The notes: generated by a model from the sequence alone, not told the origin. A stretch of 62,069 nucleotides of DNA from Acidobacteriota bacterium (GCA_050258515.1 JBLMYW010000027.1:1-62069); one strand, 5' to 3'. Positions 42,462 to 53,537 are shown, counted from the stretch's first letter. Numbers and translations are program-made.

Positions 42462-43652
42462 TTTACCTGCCGTAGCAAGGATACGCAAATGCGCAGCGGC
42501 AGAGGTGCGCCCGGCCCCGCGCATCGCCTGATCAATCAATGCCGTAGTGAATAGCGGTATGTCCGCATTGGGTATATAGAGCTGCGCGCCTTCACTGCTC
42601 GCTACCGTATCATACTTGCCATATACCTGCCGAAAGGTGATGCCATCTGGCGATGAAGTAAGGCAAAGGCGTGTCGGTGACTGGGGCTGCACTCCATACC
42701 ACTGCACGCTATGATCGTATGTATCCTGCAGTGCGTCCGCGAGCTTCAATGCCTGCTCGCGCCCATTACCATGTCCTGCATCACCAAAGTTACCCAGATA
42801 GTGCTGACCGCTCCCTGCTCGTGTAGTCGCATCGTTAATTATGCGGACAATCAGCGCTTCGCGCTGGGCTTTATCGGGTAGCAATAGTACGTGTAGCAGC
42901 ACGTCTTTCATAATATCGGGCTCCGTAGAGTGGTATGCCGCTAAGTACTCTGGGCGCGGTGTCGATGGGTAAAAATCAAGCGGCTGGCCATCTGGATCCA
43001 CAGGCACACCATCCGGCCTAGGACGTAACGCTATCCTAAAGTCGCCATGAAAATCAGCACCAACGTATACATCCTGGGTCTCGCCACCACTTGCTAGCGA
43101 AAAACTAGGCTGCGCCATATCAAGTGTAGTGATATGCGAACCTGCCTGCTCACGCTGCAAGCAAGTAGCAAGTGCGGCACCCGCAAAACGGCATGTATCT
43201 AGCGTCGCTTGGCCCTGCTGATCCAGCACCACATCTGGGTCTACGCGCAGTAGTTCTAGTGCTGCCGCACCACTCAACACTAACCGGCTCACATAGGTTT
43301 CCGGTAAATGAGTGACGACGTTTGGGCCGTCAAATAGGCCGTCGGAGGCGACAGAAATACTACCACTTGGGCGTTCTGGTGTCGGTTCGTTATCATCTCG
43401 TAAGTTGGCGCTGTGCACTGAACGAATCTGATCGGCAAGGGGGAAGCGCGGTAGCAACTCGCTGCAAAAATGCTGATAGTGTTCAGTAAAATCATCTTCG
43501 CTATATCCATGGCTCATCGCCCACTCAAGCGGAGAATCAAAATCATAGCTAGTCTTCTCCATTATCTTTTTAATAGCCTGTCGAAGCGGCTTATCTGCCG
43601 TTAGGCGCTGCTCGCCGGTTGCCGTAAGAGAAAGTGGGCTGTATTCTAGCAT
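42450..43652 (-). CDS. Hypothetical protein
   Basis: 400-aa open frame with TATAAT just upstream; no recognised motif. Confidence 0.65.
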   Translation of the reverse strand: MLEYSPLSLTATGEQRLTADKPLRQAIKKIMEKTSYDFDSPLEWAMSHGYSEDDFTEHYQHFCSELLPRFPLADQIRSVHSANLRDDNEPTPERPSGSISVASDGLFDGPNVVTHLPETYVSRLVLSGAAALELLRVDPDVVLDQQGQATLDTCRFAGAALATCLQREQAGSHITTLDMAQPSFSLASGGETQDVYVGADFHGDFRIALRPRPDGVPVDPDGQPLDFYPSTPRPEYLAAYHSTEPDIMKDVLLHVLLLPDKAQREALIVRIINDATTRAGSGQHYLGNFGDAGHGNGREQALKLADALQDTYDHSVQWYGVQPQSPTRLCLTSSPDGITFRQVYGKYDTVASSEGAQLYIPNADIPLFTTALIDQAMRGAGRTSAAAHLRILATAGKLLY

Positions 43653-43874
43653 GGTGTGCTGATTATAACACTGTATACACTTGCCGTGAAAGCATGAAGT
43701 AGGTTTTTATGGATGAGGTTTGCCAGGCCAATACTGGCGGGGGCAGGATTATCGGCAACAAGTTGCCTCCTCCGTTCGTTCACGAAAAAATGTAAACACT
43801 TTTTCGCTCCACTCTCTCCGCGAACCTGCGACTATTTTTGCTTCGCAACAGGTCGCAGGTTCAATCGGCACCAA

Positions 43875-43920
43875 AACCAAGAAAATACCCCCATCTTTCG
43901 ATGAGGGAATTTTCTTGGTT
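43875..43920 (-). terminator. Original tRNA-Met terminator, now separated from the tRNA by the island
   Basis: AACCAAGAAAAT-acccccatctttcgatgaggga-ATTTTCTTGGTT hairpin abutting the att core. Confidence 0.7.
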
Positions 43921-43922
43921 GC
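43911..43922. repeat. att core, left copy
   Basis: TTTCTTGGTTGC, identical to 52544-52555. Confidence 0.85.
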
Positions 43923-44036
43923 CCAAGTGGCTCTGCATTGGAACCAAATCTGTTCAGAAATATTACGATGGAAGCAGCTAACAGAGACAAGACCAGTGGT
44001 TACATAGACACCCGTACAAGATTAATGTTCTACATG

Positions 44037-44834
44037 TTACTTGTAGAAGTCTATTGAAACCTTTTTATTCATTTCGGTCGTAAAGCCATTCCAATTTCCC
44101 TGAATTTCAATAGGCAATGTAGTTGGCCAATTAATATCACTTTTCGCATGATCAGGCCATAATTCTCGTAATAGGTGTGGTTCTTTAGGATGTAGAAATA
44201 CATAACCCTCATTTATATCGGTGCCGAGCATATAGAAGTAAACATGACCAACCACTAGTGCAGCCGAAAACACCTTTTTGCCAGAGTTTTGAGCGATACT
44301 CATGACGTATTTATCAAGTGGCTTGCATTGCACCTTAGTCGGTTGCTGAACGACATAACCAGCCGCATGCTTGCCACCAACGCCGTATGCCTCTTCACGA
44401 AATCCCAAGTAAACGGTTAATTCTGGCAACAAAGCGTGGATGTCAAATAAGCGTCGAGGGATCGTTGGCGGGATGTGATTAGTGTTATCGGAGTTAGCGT
44501 ACTCAAGGACAATTAATGTTTTTACAGCCCAGCGGGCTAATATCGACTGCTCTTCAAGATTTAATGTTTTACCAACACCAGGCCCCGTAATCATTGGTCC
44601 CAAGATCTTCGCCGCTTCAGCCTCGACCTGCGCCATCCATCCACTGTTACATGATTCACACACAATACGTGCCGTCTGATCAAATGCCTTAGCGACAAAC
44701 TGAATGGAATCACCATTTGCTTTTTCTATAACATGCAGGCCACCAGCCATCTCTCCCCAATAACCCTGAAGCCATTTAGGAAGGATATGTTCTTTTGTAA
44801 GATTTGTTTTGCCACAAAAAATGCACGATCTCAT
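44037..44834 (-). CDS. HNH-like nuclease domain protein
   Basis: CIFC....TKEHILPKW...VCESCNSGWM. Confidence 0.75.
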   Translation of the reverse strand: MRSCIFCGKTNLTKEHILPKWLQGYWGEMAGGLHVIEKANGDSIQFVAKAFDQTARIVCESCNSGWMAQVEAEAAKILGPMITGPGVGKTLNLEEQSILARWAVKTLIVLEYANSDNTNHIPPTIPRRLFDIHALLPELTVYLGFREEAYGVGGKHAAGYVVQQPTKVQCKPLDKYVMSIAQNSGKKVFSAALVVGHVYFYMLGTDINEGYVFLHPKEPHLLRELWPDHAKSDINWPTTLPIEIQGNWNGFTTEMNKKVSIDFYK

Positions 44835-45011
44835 TACAGATAATTATGCCTCACATTTCGAATACTTAACATACTGGAGCAAACGACCAGTAGCATTTCA
44901 ATATCACAACAATGATTTCATAAAGAACTCTGTAAAGTGGATAGTACACGTCCATAATAACGGGTAAGGGTTTTATGTCTCAAAACGTAAAATTAATGTA
45001 TAATTTATGAT

Positions 45012-45461
45012 ATGAAAACGTCAATTATGCACGTCGCAAGGAAGCTAATTGACCTCTCGAGTGCCCCTATCACACCCCTGAAACTGCAGAAACTTACATA
45101 TTACTGTCAGGCTTGGTCATTAGTTTGGGAAGAGAGGCCTCTTTTCGATGAAGAATTTCAAGCATGGGCAAACGGCCCAGTGAACCAGGAGCTATTTGCC
45201 AAGCACAAAGGTAAATATATACTTGAAGATAATTTTCTTGCCGAATATTCTAATTACGACTTTAATGATGCCGATATGCACACTATTCAAACTGTGCTGA
45301 ACTTTTATGGCGACAAAGAGCCTTTCTTCCTTAGTGAACTCACACACAAGGAACGTCCGTGGAAAGAGGCTCGTGGAGACACCCCACTCGGGGCTCCATC
45401 AACTTCAGTTATAAGCCTCGATTCAATGCGTGAGTACTATACCGAAATCTCAACACGATAA
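45012..45461 (+). CDS. Panacea-domain (DUF4065/SocA-like) antitoxin
   Basis: ITPLKLQKLTYYCQAW, LFDEEFQAWANGPV and LSELTHKERPW motifs. Confidence 0.9.
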   Translation: MKTSIMHVARKLIDLSSAPITPLKLQKLTYYCQAWSLVWEERPLFDEEFQAWANGPVNQELFAKHKGKYILEDNFLAEYSNYDFNDADMHTIQTVLNFYGDKEPFFLSELTHKERPWKEARGDTPLGAPSTSVISLDSMREYYTEISTR

Positions 45462-45467
45462 AACAAG

Positions 45468-45980
45468 ATGTCCACCACCAAGATCCCAAAAATTTCAGAG
45501 AGTATCTCAGGTAATAAACAGCCTGTCGCCAAAGAAGCTTCGGATAGCTACTTTCATAAGGCACCTTCCTGGAGATTCTCTAAAGCAGATCACGAACATT
45601 CAAAGTGGTCAGTACTTGATAGCCACGAGGATATAGTCTACGATCCCAACGATCCAAAAGACACCTTAATACTACACACATTTTCAAAATCTGTTGATGC
45701 GTCATTACTTGAGTCATTAAAAAGCAGAGAGACTATGACTTGGGGTGCTTTACTTACCCAAAGTGGAGGCAGAAAACATGGAACAAACAGCCATCATATC
45801 CCCATGCATAAATTGATAAAAGAAGCACAAGGCAGAGCTACCGAATTAGGCATTTACGAGGATGAGCTACTCTCTCTTCGACTAGACGGCACCCATCGAG
45901 TTTTCGGTATCCTTACAGATGGTGTCTTGGACATCATCTGGTTTGACCGTGACCACGAAATCTGCCCCGTGAATAAATAA
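45468..45980 (+). CDS. Putative toxin partner of the Panacea antitoxin
   Basis: 6 nt downstream of the antitoxin; SLRLDGTHRVFG....LDIIWFDRDH C-terminus resembling RelE-like RNase folds. Confidence 0.65.
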   Translation: MSTTKIPKISESISGNKQPVAKEASDSYFHKAPSWRFSKADHEHSKWSVLDSHEDIVYDPNDPKDTLILHTFSKSVDASLLESLKSRETMTWGALLTQSGGRKHGTNSHHIPMHKLIKEAQGRATELGIYEDELLSLRLDGTHRVFGILTDGVLDIIWFDRDHEICPVNK

Positions 45981-46071
45981 TTAAGGATAGTTAGAATTCA
46001 AGACATACTCCCTGGAATCACTAGATACTATCATTGTATAATCCTATACAGGTATCACTGAAGTTGATATC

Positions 46072-46223
46072 TAGTAGCATATAATCGACTTTGCGTGGAA
46101 TTCCTTCCACGATCAATAAAAATGTTTCTCCCATACGCCCTCACGTTTCTTCGCTGGGTTTTCGTATGTTCATCACTATCCAATTGACAATGGGTTTGCG
46201 ATAGGAAGGGTTACATGCTACTA
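46072..46223 (+). ncRNA. Retron msr-msd ncRNA candidate
   Basis: Terminal inverted repeats TAGTAGCATATAATC (46072-46086) and GGTTACATGCTACTA (46209-46223); unpaired G at 46087; internal hairpins; ends 1 nt before the RT ATG. Confidence 0.75.
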
Positions 46224-46224
46224 A

Positions 46225-47817
46225 ATGGCAGCTTCAAAACGCCCGTTATTAGAGTGTCAAAACCGTGAACAATTAGCGGAATTGCTTGAGGTGGACATAT
46301 CGACATTAACTTATTTTGCATATGGTGGCGGCAGAAAATATAAGTCATTCAGTATACCTAAAAAGAGTGGCGGTGTTAGACGAATCTCAGCTCCTGTCGG
46401 TGGCCTAAAAGAGATACAAAGAAAGCTAGCCAGTCATCTGACAGAAATCTACCCAAACCCCGTATACGTGCATGGATTCATTGCACATCGATCAGTCGTC
46501 ACAAACGCAACACCCCACCTCAATAAAAAGCATGTATTCAATATAGACTTGAAGGACTACTTTCCTAGCATCACGAGCAATCGCATTATAGGGCTACTAC
46601 GATCTAAGCCTTTTAATTTCAATGATCAGGTTGCTTCAACGATTGCTGGACTAACCTGTTCTGAAGGGTCATTACCACAAGGTGCTCCGACATCGCCTAT
46701 TCTTGCCAATATGATAGCTCTAAGAATGGACAAGGCATTGCGCAAGCTATGCAAGCGTGACCATGTATCTTACTCGAGATATGCAGATGATTTAACATTC
46801 TCTTCAAGCAGATCTCTTCCGAAATCTATATTATTGATTGATGAAGATACGGGTGCTGTTCTAGTTGGGGACGAGTTACGTGAAATTATTACCGATAACT
46901 ACTTCAAAATAAATCCCGCCAAAACAAGACTTAGTCGCAATGGACAAGCGAAGTACGTTACTGGAGTTAAGGTTAATGCTAGTCCAAACCTATCACGCAA
47001 GTACATTCGCCAAATTAAGAATATGCTCCACGCATGGGAAAAGTGGGGCACCGACAGAGCGCAACAAGAATTCAAGGACAAGTTTGGTGGTGAGAATAGG
47101 AAGTTTCAAAACGTACTCTGGGGTAAAATTGCCTATCTAAAAAGTATAAAAGGTAATAATGACCTTACGTATGCCAAGCTATATAACAAATTCGTTGAGC
47201 TTGAGGGAGAAGGCAAACCACAAATACCTATTACAGAGCTCGAACGGTTACACGGAATGGTCTATGTAATTAAATCAGATGCCGAGCAAGGTACAGCATT
47301 CCTGTTGAATAGCAGATGGTTTTTAACATGTGGTCATGTTGTGGCTAGTGATAGTACTGAAAATTTCTATTTCCCCTACGATAGATGGTCACCCTATGAT
47401 CGAAAGAGATTCACGGCAATTGACGAAACTCGCTCCTCTAAAGATGAATTCGACATAATTACGCTATCTTTTGACTCAGAAGATGAACGTATGGTAAATA
47501 ATTCTTTCGAGCTCGCGCCTGATAATTTTCAGGTGGAAGTAAACATGGAATTTAGAGTAGTTGGATTCCCTGCTTATCGCTCGGGCTTTAAGCCGCACGT
47601 ATTACCTGTAAAAGTGGTTGCAATTAACCAGAATGGCTCATATATGCATGCGTATGTAGATCAAAAACTCTCTGGAGGTCTAAGTGGCAGTCCTGTAATC
47701 GATAGTAATAACCGTCTTGTTGGAGTCGTACAAAGAGGAGAAGAAGCAACCACTCTCGACAACACATTCTTGCCGATACAAGAACTTAGAAAATACATTT
47801 CTTCACTAGAAACCTAG
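46225..47817 (+). CDS. Retron-type reverse transcriptase fused to a C-terminal trypsin-like serine protease
   Basis: IPKKSGGVRRI, NATPH (NAxxH), DLKDYFPSI, LPQGAPTSP, YADD and VTG; protease motifs LTCGHV, FDI and GLSGSPV. Confidence 0.93.
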   Translation: MAASKRPLLECQNREQLAELLEVDISTLTYFAYGGGRKYKSFSIPKKSGGVRRISAPVGGLKEIQRKLASHLTEIYPNPVYVHGFIAHRSVVTNATPHLNKKHVFNIDLKDYFPSITSNRIIGLLRSKPFNFNDQVASTIAGLTCSEGSLPQGAPTSPILANMIALRMDKALRKLCKRDHVSYSRYADDLTFSSSRSLPKSILLIDEDTGAVLVGDELREIITDNYFKINPAKTRLSRNGQAKYVTGVKVNASPNLSRKYIRQIKNMLHAWEKWGTDRAQQEFKDKFGGENRKFQNVLWGKIAYLKSIKGNNDLTYAKLYNKFVELEGEGKPQIPITELERLHGMVYVIKSDAEQGTAFLLNSRWFLTCGHVVASDSTENFYFPYDRWSPYDRKRFTAIDETRSSKDEFDIITLSFDSEDERMVNNSFELAPDNFQVEVNMEFRVVGFPAYRSGFKPHVLPVKVVAINQNGSYMHAYVDQKLSGGLSGSPVIDSNNRLVGVVQRGEEATTLDNTFLPIQELRKYISSLET

Positions 47818-48812
47818 AGATCTTCATCAATCAGCTTCAAGAATGCAGTTAGGTGCATGACTGCGATAAGTGAATTTATGTTCGTATATTGTTTTTTAGA
47901 TACTGCATGGGCAGTAGCGTGTCGAGTGTACTGTCGTGGTATATTTTCACTTACTCCATCAGGCCAATATTCTGCATAAGATCCCCATACACCACCAAAG
48001 ACAAGTGCTGCACGCAGTGGATACTCTTTCCAGCTTATCCTTTGTCCGTTTCTATGGTTAGTTAGCTTTAATCTGGAATCATTATCGAAAAGTCGTCTTA
48101 TGACTGAGTCAATAATGTTCGTACTTAGTGCCTGGCTTGATCGCCAATGACCCATCTTAATCGATTCAGCTGCCTCAATAGCAAAAATCTTATATTCATG
48201 TAGCTCCTCTTTCTTCAGAGAGTTTAGCTCCAGTAGACACGAATTGATAATTCCTTTCCTATTGTTGTAGAGGATCTTTCTGCGTTCATTTACAGTGTCT
48301 GCTGCAAACATTTTATCCAGCACGTTGCGGGCAGGAACCCATGCCAAGGGAAGGCCTTCATCCAACAATAGAGTCTCGAGATTTTCTGGCAACAAGAGAG
48401 TCTTGTCACCTCTCCAATTAGGGGGATGGCTCCACTCTACAATTTTTCCAAGGTTTTTCGTAATCTCCGAAAATCGCTCAGCCCACATATCATTTAAAGG
48501 TTTAACTATGTCCTGCAGGAAGTTTGCATGTCCTTTAGTAGCATCCAAAAATACTGAATTGATCGTAGGACTTAATGCTTCTGTCATTGTTTTAGCTAAG
48601 TTAGAAAAAGCTGGAGTAGACAGACCATCAATGGTTGGTACTAGTGTTTTAGAAATTGAACTCATTAACTCTGACGTATGCTTAAGTTCAGGCATAGAGC
48701 TAGCCACTATTCTATTTATCGACTCGGTCAATTGCCGAGTCGCATCAAGCTGTAACTGTGGTATTTTAACGTCAATTATCTCATTTATGCGTTCTTGATC
48801 ACTCTTTTCCAT
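47814..48812 (-). CDS. Hypothetical protein with C-terminal RxxxxH (HEPN-like) motif
   Basis: YTRHATAH in a helical C-terminal domain; converges on the RT gene with a 4-bp overlap of the two stop codons. Confidence 0.6.
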   Translation of the reverse strand: MEKSDQERINEIIDVKIPQLQLDATRQLTESINRIVASSMPELKHTSELMSSISKTLVPTIDGLSTPAFSNLAKTMTEALSPTINSVFLDATKGHANFLQDIVKPLNDMWAERFSEITKNLGKIVEWSHPPNWRGDKTLLLPENLETLLLDEGLPLAWVPARNVLDKMFAADTVNERRKILYNNRKGIINSCLLELNSLKKEELHEYKIFAIEAAESIKMGHWRSSQALSTNIIDSVIRRLFDNDSRLKLTNHRNGQRISWKEYPLRAALVFGGVWGSYAEYWPDGVSENIPRQYTRHATAHAVSKKQYTNINSLIAVMHLTAFLKLIDEDL

Positions 48813-48854
48813 TCGATACCTATAACTCCCTTTGAATAAATTGTATAATACAAA

Positions 48855-48990
48855 TGTCTAAGTCATTGAGTAACGCATTTAAGTTGCGGTGCTTTATGCA
48901 CGGTAAAGCTTTGAAAACGGCACCGTGCAGAAACATTTGAGCTTTACAGCTTGAGTGCGGATCAATGGCTTAGACACCTAGCACGGTGTC
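48855..48990 (+). ncRNA. Structured RNA / leader candidate
   Basis: Nested stems 48855-48869/48962-48976, 48874-48886/48947-48959 and 48897-48904/48922-48929 with G-U pairs; TGTATAAT at 48842-48849. Confidence 0.55.
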
Positions 48991-49024
48991 GTTTTTATTT
49001 CCGACACAGAAATGGATTGATTGT

Positions 49025-49306
49025 ATGAAGCAAACTGAAAAACAAAACAGTGGATGGACATGGATAATGATAGTCATTATCATCCTGGGTGGACTTTACT
49101 TAGTCTCTCGACTACAAAACAGCGATGCGTCATCTCAAGCAGATAAAGTTACCAAGGCTAAGCAAGCATGTCGATGGGATGGACAACGGCAAAGCTGGGA
49201 TGCCCAAGCCATGGCTACATGCGACAAACTGGGAACCCCTGCTTATACAAGTAGCACCAATCATTACTACGAAATGTACAACGCAAAGTTGAAATACGGA
49301 TTATAA
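49025..49306 (+). CDS. Small membrane-anchored protein
   Basis: N-terminal TM helix, Cys pair in the extracellular part. Confidence 0.6.
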   Translation: MKQTEKQNSGWTWIMIVIIILGGLYLVSRLQNSDASSQADKVTKAKQACRWDGQRQSWDAQAMATCDKLGTPAYTSSTNHYYEMYNAKLKYGL

Positions 49307-49309
49307 ACG

Positions 49310-49957
49310 ATGCAGTATGCAACAAATAAGATCATCGATCGTAAAATCCTTATAACAAAATTTGAAATTATGCTCTATGCTCTACCTGATGATTTTTTCG
49401 TCTACGTAGGGACTGGCGGCGAACAACTCTCAAGCTCGTACAAAGTGACTCGTAGTAGAAAAATGTTTAACATTTCGAGTGATCCTAAACGGTATCGACA
49501 GCTAGTTAGTCCTACTGAGATGTATGACATTATAAAACGCCACCTAGAGTACGAAATAAACGCTCTCAAATCACTGGAAAATAGCAATAATGACACAGGT
49601 CAGCACAGCAAAGACCGTCTCAATGAGCTGGAGGAAATGACAAGAATTTTAGAGGATTTGAAGCGTCCTGAAACAAGACTGCAAACATTACATAGACTCC
49701 AACCAAGATGGACACCTAGATCGGACAAAGAGGATGACTTATACGATGAAGCAGTATCTTTTGTTGCTCGAACACAAATTACCGACGTGACATCGATACG
49801 TGATCAGCTATCTATTGGAAGCTCTCATGCAGAGTCAATTGTGCAGCGGCTTGAAGGTGAAGGATTGGTCAGTACGTTAAATAGCAATGCACTGAAAAGA
49901 AGAGTTTTAATCACTACTGATGACCTACGTAAAAGAAAAGAGTCGAGCAAGTCTTAA
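49310..49957 (+). CDS. Protein with C-terminal FtsK gamma (winged-helix) domain
   Basis: DDLYDEAV.FV.......S.IRDQLSIG..HA..IVQRLE.EGLVS......RRVLI. Confidence 0.75.
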   Translation: MQYATNKIIDRKILITKFEIMLYALPDDFFVYVGTGGEQLSSSYKVTRSRKMFNISSDPKRYRQLVSPTEMYDIIKRHLEYEINALKSLENSNNDTGQHSKDRLNELEEMTRILEDLKRPETRLQTLHRLQPRWTPRSDKEDDLYDEAVSFVARTQITDVTSIRDQLSIGSSHAESIVQRLEGEGLVSTLNSNALKRRVLITTDDLRKRKESSKS

Positions 49958-50145
49958 GACTAAGGCCATCTACAAAGCAAGCAGGTGAACACCTGGTTTT
50001 CTCAACATTAAACAGGGGAAGTAATGCCTTTTTGTTGTATATGACACTACAATACTCAACAGGGTTATTCCGTCCTCAAAGCAAGACGGTAACAAACTCT
50101 CCTATCCCCTAAACGAGACAAGAGTTGGGTATAATAAACCCTAAC

Positions 50146-50751
50146 ATGACCGACACTCTCCATAAGAAATATATCGATAGCCTTCGTGGTAATCAGGATG
50201 TTTTCTTGATCGACACAATGCGAAGCCCAGAGTTTCAAGCTATCAAAAAGAAGCACCTAGCGAACGTCTTTACGGGTATTTATGGGCTGTTGCGCAAGGT
50301 TGATGAGAATGATGAGTCAGGGCAAAAGGTATTGGCTTGTGCAGATGAAGTCAGCGACGTGTTTAAGATAAGTAAGGCTAACGCCGTCAGGCTATTGCTT
50401 ACCCCTTCCGCTCCTGCTGTATACGGCATGCAGTACACACCGCTAGTACAACAAGATGGTAGCGACATACTGATACGTATCGGGCAGAAGACAACACGAG
50501 AAGAAGTTATGAAAGTATGGAAGTACGTAAAAGACTTACAGAAGATGATGGGTGGATCGGGTAGTAAAACATCAATCAATCCAGAACTGGCTTTTTGCGT
50601 CCATCGACAATATGTCCTCAAGGGCAGAAAAATGAAAGACATTTTTGATGATTATAGACAGCAGAAGCTAGAGGGCTATGATCACAGTCCGACAATCGAA
50701 GACGAAGACGAATTCAGGAAACGATACAATAAAATTGTAAAGGGGCTATAA
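50146..50751 (+). CDS. Hypothetical protein (island)
   Basis: TATAAT 10 nt before ATG 50146; possible C-terminal DNA-binding region. Confidence 0.6.
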   Translation: MTDTLHKKYIDSLRGNQDVFLIDTMRSPEFQAIKKKHLANVFTGIYGLLRKVDENDESGQKVLACADEVSDVFKISKANAVRLLLTPSAPAVYGMQYTPLVQQDGSDILIRIGQKTTREEVMKVWKYVKDLQKMMGGSGSKTSINPELAFCVHRQYVLKGRKMKDIFDDYRQQKLEGYDHSPTIEDEDEFRKRYNKIVKGL

Positions 50752-50993
50752 ATCGACTAGATATCCACCCCCTGCCTTCATTGGTAGTTCTAACTACTAT
50801 CAATACATGGATAATACGTCGCTCACGAATAGCAGCAGCCCTATGAAACCAGGTGCTTCTTTCGTCAGTGTTCAGAAAGCTCGAAGAATATTAGGATCGC
50901 TCGCAAATCCTATGACAGATGACCAAGTCAAAGATCTTATTTATTCTTTACATCTGTTAGCAAAAGAACAATTAGTATATAATGGTTCCAAAT

Positions 50994-52626
<1,633 letters not shown>

Positions 52627-52752
52627 ATACTAGTTATGATTCCGGTCTTGTTGTGTATTGTCATAACCAAGGTTATGAGCTAATGTTGTCTACCCGGGAG
52701 CTGACCGGACTATTCCGCCCCGCGATACATATACTAGCTTACCAGATAACAG

Positions 52753-53208
52753 TTAGCCTTGCAACCCTTTAGCACTTTGGCCGGTAAGGAACAGGAGCCA
52801 CTGTTCAATATTCGTACCTTTAGCCACCTGCTGAGTGCGCGTTACCGCACGCTTTTCATCCGCGGCATCCTGGTCGCGCACCGCCTGACTATTGGGTGGT
52901 AACACTAGGACTTTTTCACCCGGCGCTACCAGGCCGAGGCTTTGACGCGCAGCAAGATCCTTGTATTCGTCACTTTTATAATAGTTTTGCTGGTAGCGTA
53001 GTGTCGCCACTTGCAGCTCCGTCAGCTGGAGTTCGCGGGTTTGTTCGTCGACTGCCTTTTGCGCGGCAAAGTTAGTTTGCATTTGTGTGACAGTACCCCA
53101 TGCCCAACTGGCGGCAATAGCAAGCGCCACCACCATGACGATGTTGTTAAGGGTGCCATAGGTACGCCACAAATGACGCACGCGTTTTTGGATATCCATA
53201 AGCGGCAT
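52753..53208 (-). CDS. Septum formation initiator (FtsB/DivIC-like)
   Basis: TM helix, coiled coil, then YKDLAARQSLGLVAPGEKV. Confidence 0.8.
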   Translation of the reverse strand: MPLMDIQKRVRHLWRTYGTLNNIVMVVALAIAASWAWGTVTQMQTNFAAQKAVDEQTRELQLTELQVATLRYQQNYYKSDEYKDLAARQSLGLVAPGEKVLVLPPNSQAVRDQDAADEKRAVTRTQQVAKGTNIEQWLLFLTGQSAKGLQG

Positions 53209-53274
53209 ATAGTACTAGTATACAAGATGTAGCCCTAAAGGGTAACATGCGCTATAATTATACAAGTAACCTCT

Positions 53275-53350
53275 GGGGGCGTAGCTCAGCGGTTAGAGCA
53301 GCGGGCTCATAACCTGTTGGTCGCTGGTTCAATCCCAGCCGCCCCCACCA
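53275..53350 (+). tRNA. tRNA with CAT anticodon, probably tRNA-Ile2 (lysidine)
   Basis: GGGGGCG/CGCCCCC acceptor, CTCATAA loop, TGGTCGCTGGTTCAA as in Ile2-type tRNAs, CCA; followed by a terminator hairpin. Confidence 0.88.
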
Positions 53351-53537
53351 AAAAAGCATCTTATGAAAATGAGGTGCTTTTTGTATCCAATAACTACTGA
53401 GCTGCGTGCTGTGGATAAATTTCATAATTTACCATAAAAAGTATTGTATATTCAATTATTTAATGTAAATATGTATATATTAATACTAATTATGCATAAA
53501 TTTATACTAAATATGTGCATAAGAAAGCGGAGGGAGT

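What the first reader, a model, noticed from the sequence alone, without database searches (positions are those of the whole stretch)
46072..47817. Complete retron with RT-trypsin protease fusion and its own ncRNA, in a CPR-like genome island
Seen: the RT has the retron hallmarks NAxxH (46504), YADD (46780) and VTG (46957). A C-terminal domain retains a full His/Asp/Ser triad pattern (TCGH, FDI, GLSGSP). Established: RT-protease fusions form one of the computationally defined retron types, and retrons act as anti-phage toxin-antitoxin modules. Inference: msDNA holds the fused protease inactive and phage triggers proteolysis. The substrate is unknown and may be one of the flanking genes.
Basis: partly seen in the sequence, partly recalled or inferred. 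Interest (0 to 1): 0.85.

Follow-up and report, generated by a model that had tools for sequence, protein, structure and literature searches.

The report
Protease-fused retron in a CPR bacterium
This is an intact copy of an already catalogued kind of bacterial retron (a reverse transcriptase fused to a protease, preceded by a predicted folded template RNA) in a tiny-genome CPR bacterium; the small DNA it is predicted to make likely cages a predicted three-copy protease until a phage attacks.

Summary
Confirmed, and a known type. ORF 46225-47817 is a clade-8 retron RT fused to an HtrA-like, PDZ-less serine protease (PADLOC RT-Protease_XI, 529 bits, full length). RT motifs and the H371/D410/S487 triad are kept in 44 of 44 close homologues. 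Upstream lies an msr-msd: arms 46059-86/46209-36, branch G46087, a hairpin and an AAUG motif. A model built from 26 relatives without this locus ranks it first in the window, though weakly (E 0.38). The branch-to-stop spacing (37 nt) equals Eco2's and predicts an 85-nt msDNA. It sits in a low-GC recombinase island at tRNA-Met in a Saccharimonadales genome. No flanking gene recurs beside 47 other type XI loci, so 'substrate is a neighbour' is unsupported. A structure model supports a protease homotrimer (0.85 against best control 0.01), possibly from likeness to solved HtrA trimers. Best mechanism (about 50%, inferred from Eco2): msDNA cages a protease trimer, and phage damage to msDNA frees it to cut host proteins. 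Type XI was defined in 2020, some of its ncRNAs were validated in 2024, and this scan met it on other genomes. I found no test of its defence mechanism. New member of a known kind; interest 0.4.

The parts
46037..46042 (+). -10-like hexamer, likely the retron's own promoter
   Evidence: Sequence. A -10-like hexamer lies within 30 nt before the stem in 15 of 34 type XI loci against 12 of 101 control windows. The full sigma-70 scan lists no site here.
46059..46086 (+). 5' arm of the a1/a2 inverted repeat
   Evidence: 25 of 28 pairs with 46209-46236; stem score 17.5 against a best of 11 in 12 shuffles
46087..46087 (+). predicted branching guanosine
   Evidence: First unpaired base after the stem; same in L162; the aligned column is G in 15 of 26 relatives and A in 10 of 26
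46094..46111 (+). msr hairpin (7 bp, 4-nt loop)
   Evidence: Fold; homologous helix covaries in 26 relatives; top hit of the held-out model, 46081-46136
46121..46125 (+). conserved AA(U/G)GU motif; G46124 is the predicted last templated base
   Evidence: Alignment columns A 24/26, A 23/26, G 24/26; 37 nt from the branch G, as Eco2 G15 to G52
46124..46208 (+). predicted msd template; predicted msDNA of 85 nt with two weak hairpins
   Evidence: Inference from stem end and motif; DNA fold -8.7 kcal/mol
46209..46236 (+). 3' arm of a1/a2; its outer part covers the RT start codon
   Evidence: the arm also reaches the start in L162
46225..47229 (+). clade-8 retron RT domain (residues 1-335)
   Evidence: PADLOC; closest solved protein is Eco2/Ec67 by sequence (E 1e-77) and by fold
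47230..47817 (+). HtrA-like trypsin-fold protease domain without PDZ; triad H371, D410, S487
   Evidence: Triad invariant in 44 of 44; profile best matches HtrA1 (E 2e-23); fold best matches Deg2/Deg9/DegS (Z 23.2, rmsd 1.9, 175 aligned)
45012..45461 (+). SocA/Panacea antitoxin (island cargo, probably a separate system)
   Evidence: PF13274 E 2e-19; homologue near 1 of 47 other XI loci
45468..45980 (+). putative toxin paired with the Panacea gene (island cargo)
   Evidence: Weak NF046006, below cut-off; unnamed Atlas clusters; near 0 of 47 other XI loci
47814..48812 (-). convergent 332-aa gene of an unnamed family (island cargo)
   Evidence: No Pfam family; unnamed Atlas clusters; near 0 of 47 other XI loci
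50982..52592 (+). large serine recombinase, likely the island's integrase
   Evidence: Resolvase + Recombinase + Zn ribbon; homologues within 5 kb of 3 of 47 other XI loci
52549..52626 (-). tRNA-Met at the island's right edge
   Evidence: ARAGORN, Rfam
43737..52626 (.). low-GC genomic island (approximate limits)
   Evidence: GC; copies of tRNA 3'-half sequence at 43737-50 and 43846-64

Best explanation
This is an intact type XI retron: one gene fusing a clade-8 reverse transcriptase to an HtrA-like serine protease behind a predicted msr-msd RNA; the RT is predicted to make an 85-nt branched msDNA that likely cages a predicted protease trimer until phage damage to that DNA would free it to cut host proteins. 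SHOWN: the fusion, intact catalytic motifs, the a1/a2 stem, an msr core shared with relatives, and the lack of a recurrent partner gene. PREDICTED: branch at G46087, stop at G46124, protease homotrimer. INFERRED from Eco2, the closest solved relative: three RT-effector subunits assemble on msDNA with the effector domains at the centre, msDNA blocks them, and a phage nuclease triggers release. INFERRED from the missing partner: the substrate is a cellular protein encoded elsewhere, and the outcome is growth arrest or death of the infected cell. Membership in type XI is about 97% likely; the confidence below is for the whole mechanism.
For: PADLOC best RT-Protease_XI, 529.5 bits over residues 8-526; next type (XII) 389.6 bits, RT part only. 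Triad and YxDD invariant in 44 of 44 close homologues; 40 of 48 XI loci match a simple His + Ser pattern. 34 of 48 XI loci have an upstream long-range stem above all 12 shuffles. msr hairpin in 26 relatives: 87.8% of cells paired, 5 of 6 pairs with two-sided changes, 0 of 500 shuffles reach the covariation score, slid controls at most 0.21 against 0.64. The model without this locus ranks 46081-46136 first in 62 kb and puts its best hit just upstream of the RT in 3 of 3 held-out plasmid XI loci. Eco2 is the top match by sequence and fold; there msDNA cages three effector domains and DenB cleavage frees them (PMC12916289, passages and sections 6 and 11). Branch-to-stop spacing is 37 nt in both. 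Three copies of residues 252-530 score 0.85 against best control 0.01; runs agree in at least 93% of contacts, pLDDT at least 82; the mark was reached by 20 of 30 solved pairs and 1 of 23 single chains, counts that hold only roughly here. HtrA proteases need the trimer to be active (PMC11252331, passages). Type XI ncRNAs were validated in E. coli (PMC10849725, passage).
Against: No experiment on this locus. I found no test of type XI defence or proteolysis. The held-out model scores this ncRNA weakly (14.7 bits, E 0.38), and its hairpin departs from the relatives' consensus. The 26 training RNAs were chosen by me and cut around an anchor column, which favours covariation. The trimer pass may come from likeness to solved HtrA trimers, contains no msDNA, and its interface residues are no more conserved than the domain (0.50 against 0.54). 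In Eco2 the only protein contact is the RT-effector linker, whereas here the model's contacts are protease-protease, so the cage geometry need not carry over. The msr model finds only a background-level hit at 1 of 3 Ec67-type loci (E 0.42) and none upstream at the other two. Only one locus of the close clade could be read for neighbours.
Confidence: 0.5

Rival explanations
1. Same parts, other switch: msDNA keeps the protease domains apart or out of register, or the a1/a2 stem keeps translation low, and infection allows the active HtrA-like trimer to form. Activation is by assembly or by synthesis, not by uncaging.
For: HtrA monomers are inactive. The predicted trimer forms without nucleic acid through protease surfaces. 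The 3' arm covers the start codon here and in L162. Type VI retrons are reported to work by translational derepression (search listing only).
Against: In Eco2 msDNA promotes the trimer. In most XI loci the stem ends 20-50 nt before the approximate start.
Confidence: 0.22
2. The freed protease cuts a phage protein, or cuts itself to release or remodel a domain, and no host target is needed.
For: No linked zymogen gene. Mestre et al. left the target open ('cleavage of targeting peptides').
Against: Eco2 and the characterised protease modules act on the host. No direct evidence for a phage target or a self-cleavage site.
Confidence: 0.13
3. One reading: the protease cuts a neighbour, most plausibly the upstream Panacea antitoxin, and frees its toxin.
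For: The pair ends 79 nt before the ncRNA on the same strand. Defence proteases often have an adjacent substrate gene (bioRxiv 2025.11.14.688446 and PMC12799240, passages).
Against: Panacea homologue near 1 of 47 other XI loci, its partner near 0 of 47. Absent from 19.5 kb around the close relative in G286. The retron has its own -10-like box. No Pfam family recurs more than twice among 65 adjacent ORFs.
Confidence: 0.07
4. The locus is intact but not an anti-phage system: selfish cargo that stabilises the island, or a non-producing remnant.
For: Rare and patchy: 1 other genome in samples of class and order, 0 of 400 in the phylum sample, 0 of 350 in the family sample. 36 of 98 census retrons gave no visible RT-DNA.
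Against: Both active sites are invariant across homologues down to about 41% identity, and the RNA structure is conserved. Patchy island cargo is typical of defence genes (own knowledge).
Confidence: 0.08

Closest known systems
Type XI retrons (Mestre et al. 2020, PMC7736814; PADLOC RT-Protease_XI; Toro 2026, PMC13712802; Khan et al. 2024, PMC10849725)
   Same: Clade-8 RT fused to a C-terminal trypsin-like protease in one ORF, no conserved partner, upstream ncRNA. It is a member.
   Different: Belongs to a distinct 46-row branch (support 98) whose only taxonomically placed members here are Saccharimonadales. The three XI rows I saw in the census table are Gammaproteobacteria. Mestre found no XI ncRNA and Toro lists no covariance model for XI; a shared msr core is modelled here.
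Retron Eco2/Ec67, type I-C1 (PMC12916289; PDB 9I2F, 9LM3)
   Same: Closest solved RT; single RT-effector fusion; same 37-nt branch-to-stop spacing; three-fold assembly known there and predicted here.
   Different: Effector is a TOPRIM RNase that cuts tRNA, not a protease; msDNA is 67 nt against a predicted 85; protein contacts are in the linker there and in the protease domain in this model. Works-like template, not the same type.
HtrA/Deg proteases (DegS, Deg2, HtrA1)
   Same: Closest fold and profile for the effector domain; activity needs a trimer; the predicted interface uses the segments after the GFP motif that align to HtrA's activation loops (loop names recalled).
   Different: No PDZ domain; fused behind an RT; about 14-19% identity. 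msDNA may take the regulatory place of PDZ (inference).
Protease-zymogen defence modules (MBL, alpha/beta-hydrolase, Pepco, EACC1; bioRxiv 2025.11.14.688446, PMC12799240)
   Same: Trypsin-like protease fused to a defence sensor.
   Different: Those carry a conserved adjacent substrate gene; none is seen at type XI loci here.

Membership tests
Retron | RT with region X (NAxxH), YxDD and region Y (VTG) | tested here: met
   N94, H98, Y186, D188, D189, V245, T246 invariant in 44 of 44
Retron | RT groups with retron RTs | tested here: met
   The 25 PADLOC rows shown are all retron models; the 12 best PDB sequence matches are retron RTs; Foldseek ranks Eco2 first. The tree had no non-retron outgroup.
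Retron | Adjacent ncRNA with a1/a2 repeats, branching G and hairpins | tested here: met
   (computational; the held-out model hit is weak, E 0.38)
Retron | Produces branched msDNA | not testable with these tools
   Only assembled DNA contigs were available
Type XI retron | Clade-8 RT | tested here: met
   Top PADLOC types are XI, XII and I-C, the three clade-8 fusions of Mestre's Table 1
Type XI retron | [quoted passage not shown] | tested here: met
Type XI retron | Single-gene system without a conserved partner | tested here: met
   limited by short contigs and by only one close-clade locus
Type XI retron | Anti-phage activity through the protease | not testable with these tools
   No test found in print for the type
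Type I-C retron (Eco2) | C-terminal TOPRIM domain | tested here: not met
   I-C models cover only the RT part; NF038237 scores 300 against a cut-off of 450; the C-terminal domain is a trypsin fold
Type I-C retron (Eco2), works-like | Three-fold RT-effector complex caged by msDNA | tested here: inconclusive
   Protein-only trimer model passes but holds no msDNA and may reflect solved HtrA trimers
HtrA/Deg proteases | Trypsin-fold domain of HtrA type with His/Asp/Ser triad | tested here: met
HtrA/Deg proteases | C-terminal PDZ domain (usual, recalled) | tested here: not met
   The protein ends 43 residues after S487; no PDZ in Pfam
Protease-zymogen defence modules | Conserved adjacent effector gene (MBL, hydrolase, Pepco, EACC1) | tested here: not met
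   No such Pfam family among the island genes or 65 ORFs adjacent to other XI loci; no recurrent neighbour cluster except recombinases and common enzymes

The most novel reading that the evidence does not exclude
Type XI retrons are DNA-gated HtrA-like proteases: a self-made branched DNA replaces the PDZ domain as the lock on a protease trimer, and phage nucleases open it. The msr core modelled here (branch base, hairpin, AA(U/G)GU stop motif 34-38 nt on) is a shared clade-8 scaffold onto which protease, TIR, Mrr-like or no effectors are grafted, and a subset may branch from A instead of G. This locus would be a working example in an episymbiotic CPR cell.
Probability: 0.35. Interest if true: 0.72.

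Novelty: new member of a known kind. Interest (0 to 1): 0.4.

Why it matters
The locus itself is ordinary for its type. Its value is as a test case: I found no published mechanism for any protease-fused retron, and this analysis gives exact predictions (branch G46087, stop G46124, 85-nt msDNA, trimer interface at residues 449-470, no partner gene needed). If the mechanism holds, it adds proteolysis to the outputs that msDNA can gate and offers a one-gene, DNA-sensing protease switch. It also adds a retron to the little-studied defence repertoire of Saccharimonadales; a search for retron + Patescibacteria + defense systems returned 0 papers, and retron + candidate phyla radiation returned 8 listed papers that I saw only as listings.

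Tried and rejected
Rfam has no family for the ncRNA: only tRNAs and two chance-level hits in 43500-53500. The viral collection gave no relative. Whole-genome searches gave one close locus only (the samples overlap), so neighbour and ncRNA conservation inside the close clade rests on L162 alone. The genus search for the empty insertion site matched only short ends. No RNA holder was listed among sequencing runs; this says nothing on expression. Contigs laid on the locus match it in pieces without gaps in the ORF's near-identical pieces, and show nothing on msDNA. The sigma-70 scan found no more promoters than chance (8 against 8.5) and none before the ncRNA. A full-length ncRNA alignment did not align the arms or msd, so only the msr core was modelled. 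The msr model did not clearly detect Ec67-type RNAs. Atlas searches named no family for the two flanking genes. Considered and rejected: group II intron or DRT identity (NCBIfam 51, 33 and 27 bits, far below cut-offs); V8/Spl-type assignment of the protease (lower than HtrA/Deg); the flanking genes as part of the system. Look-ups in this scan's notes by sequence and by place were empty.

Full report
OBSERVATION. The window holds one uninterrupted 530-aa ORF at 46225-47817. Pfam finds RVT_1 and Trypsin_2 above cut-off. PADLOC's best models are both RT-Protease_XI (529.5 and 527 bits, residues 8-526); types XII and I-C follow and cover only the RT. AlphaFold2 gives a confident two-domain model (pLDDT 89.4, pTM 0.74) whose best solved match is retron Eco2; Eco2 is also first by sequence profile (E 1e-77).

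THE PROTEIN FAMILY. A search of 5.8 billion proteins gave 43 full-length homologues at 40-83% identity, then a drop from 462 to 357 bits (only the 7,996 best candidates were scored). In these 44 sequences H371, D410, S487, Y186, D188 and D189 are invariant. In a quick tree of 131 clade-8 RT domains (53 stored proteins, 47 XI loci and every second non-XI locus among L001-L080; no outgroup) they form one branch of 46 rows with support 98. The protease domain is HtrA-like: a profile of 35 XI protease domains best matches mycobacterial HtrA1 (E 2e-23), and its model best matches Deg2, Deg9 and DegS (Z 23.2/21.9/21.2; rmsd 1.9-2.6; 173-175 aligned). There is no PDZ domain.

THE RNA. Arms 46059-46086 and 46209-46236 pair at 25 of 28 positions. 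The enclosed stretch folds better than 200 of 200 shuffles. To test it against relatives I took 48 of 162 fetched loci that encode an RT with a C-terminal protease (this locus included; one split locus, L031, added by hand). 34 of 48 have an upstream long-range stem above all 12 shuffles. Of 41 loci with at most one shuffle as high, I held out this one, aligned 30, and dropped 4 (three poorly aligned, one near-duplicate) to align the msr core of 26. The core reads: arm, G or A, a U-rich linker, a 6-7 bp hairpin, a 9-12 nt spacer, AA(U/G)GU. The hairpin covaries (87.8% paired; 30 cells with two-sided changes against 9.2 in shuffles; slid controls far lower), though my selection favours this. 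The resulting model ranks 46081-46136 first in the 62-kb window, exactly inside the arms, but weakly (14.7 bits, E 0.38; next 11.1 bits). In 3 of 3 plasmid XI loci fetched afterwards its best hit lies just upstream of the RT (E 6.5e-6, 2.4e-5, 0.071). Over 89 further clade-8 loci it gave 39 matches at E up to 5, 38 of them on the RT strand just upstream of the RT, 26 at E below 0.01. These include RT-TIR fusions (4 of 21 scanned), one RT-Mrr-like fusion and short RTs, so the core is shared across clade 8. It is not clearly shared with Ec67-type loci (one background-level hit in 3). In Eco2 synthesis starts at G15 and stops at G52 after flipping U51 (PMC12916289, passages). Here G46087 to G46124 is also 37 nt, with U before the G, and relatives show 34-38 nt. 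This predicts an 85-nt msDNA templated by 46208 to 46124. A -10-like hexamer at 46037-42 precedes the stem, as in 15 of 34 XI loci against 12 of 101 controls, so the retron likely has its own promoter.

CONTEXT. The retron lies in a stretch of GC 0.413 between flanks of 0.51, ending in a large serine recombinase that overlaps tRNA-Met, with copies of tRNA 3'-half sequence at the far end. The genome is 829 kb, 78% complete, with one copy of the gene. A genome listed as the same order encodes a protein identical in its RT domain to one named Candidatus Saccharimonadales, which supports the CPR label. The element is rare: 2 of 401 genomes in the class sample (own included), 1 of 401 in the order sample (the same other genome), 0 of 400 others in the phylum and 0 of 350 in the family samples. 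Island cargo includes a Panacea antitoxin with an unnamed partner directly upstream, an HNH-like gene and a convergent 332-aa unknown. Within the up-to-5-kb flanks of 47 other XI loci, blastp found a Panacea homologue once, the recombinase three times and the other six island genes never; the largest recurrent cluster was recombinases in 6 loci. Among 65 adjacent same-strand ORFs no Pfam family recurred more than twice and none was a known protease-activated effector. The close relative in G286 stands alone on its strand between a recombinase and a methylase gene. Limits: many contigs are short, ORFs under 60-70 aa were not examined, and the DNA of the other close homologues could not be fetched.

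MECHANISM. Eco2 forms a three-fold complex in which msDNA cages three TOPRIM domains; phage DenB cuts the msDNA and frees them (sections 6 and 11 and passages read). Its authors call it plausible that type XI works likewise. I folded three copies of residues 252-530: score 0.85, best of 3 controls 0.01, runs agreeing in at least 93% of contacts, pLDDT at least 82; the mark was reached by 20 of 30 solved pairs and 1 of 23 single chains, roughly applicable. Contacts join 449-461 of one protease domain to 463-470, 477-481 and 510-512 of the next. By the HtrA alignment these are the segments I recall as loops LD and L3, whose inter-subunit contact activates HtrA (PMC11252331, passages). The pass may therefore reflect likeness to solved HtrA trimers, and the interface is not more conserved than the domain. 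Taken together the most likely model is an Eco2-like assembly with a protease trimer at the centre, locked by msDNA and opened by phage DNA-degrading enzymes, cutting host proteins encoded elsewhere (about 50%). Rivals: activation by assembly or translation (22%), a phage or self target (13%), no defence role (8%), a neighbour as substrate (7%).

WHAT IS KNOWN. Mestre et al. 2020 defined type XI as a clade-8 RT with a C-terminal trypsin-like protease, lacking a recognisable ncRNA (passages). Khan et al. 2024 state that validated ncRNAs include clade 8, type XI (passages and Results part 1); their table lists at least 3 XI retrons (parts 1 and 3 of 4 read); I could not see which made RT-DNA. 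Toro 2026 still lists no covariance model for XI and models only two protease-less lineages (sections 13 and 17 and passages). Searches for a functional test of type XI returned none; the library lacks most subscription papers. This scan has noted type XI retrons on other genomes, one in another CPR group (AI notes, not evidence). Panacea papers were seen as listings only.

VERDICT. Real, intact, and a new member of a known kind. The additions are a workable msr core model for protease-fused type XI, exact msDNA end predictions, evidence against a neighbouring substrate, and a trimer prediction. Interest 0.4.

Noticed in passing
window 43737-43930: At the island's left edge a 14-bp direct copy (43737-50) and a 19-bp inverted copy (43846-64) of adjacent parts of the tRNA-Met 3' half flank a 113-bp segment, followed by a 21-bp hairpin (43875-43920). 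It may be a locally inverted att site or a tRNA-associated repeat; similar elements sit at tRNA 3' halves in genus relatives L166 and L168.
   Followed up: partly
alignment A3; e.g. L018, L047, L086, L103, L110, L124, L179: The putative branch column is A in 10 of 26 type XI RNAs. Either a subset branches from adenosine or the true G lies a few bases away.
   Followed up: no
window 45012-45980: Panacea/SocA antitoxin followed by a 170-aa protein of unnamed, widespread Atlas clusters with a weak MAG6450 match: a candidate toxin-antitoxin pair with an unannotated toxin.
   Followed up: partly
window 47814-48812 (-): 332-aa gene of an unnamed family, commonest in Actinomycetota among Atlas clusters; its stop overlaps the retron's stop.
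   Followed up: partly
window 44037-44834 (-) and 49310-49957 (+): Island genes with a weak N-terminal HNH_5 match (below cut-off) and with an FtsK gamma domain.
   Followed up: no
window 52600-52630 and 52698-52728: An 87%-identical 31-nt copy of the tRNA-Met 5' part lies 98 nt beyond the tRNA; three tRNA-Met(CAT) calls lie in this window.
   Followed up: no
L031:4902-6531: Parcubacteria type XI locus in which RT and protease lie in two overlapping frames.
   Followed up: no
L019:2326-3903; L084, L097, L036, L093, L091, L090: Clade-8 RTs with the same msr core carry an Mrr-like nuclease tail (L019) or 200-300 aa tails with no Pfam family: candidate undescribed effector fusions.
   Followed up: partly
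L116:183-1484: A second RT gene lies directly upstream of a type XI retron.
   Followed up: no
window 46072-46105, run X5: One 233-nt contig matches only these 34 nt (2 differences) and has other sequence upstream, as if a relative shares the ncRNA start but not the context; single short contig.
   Followed up: no
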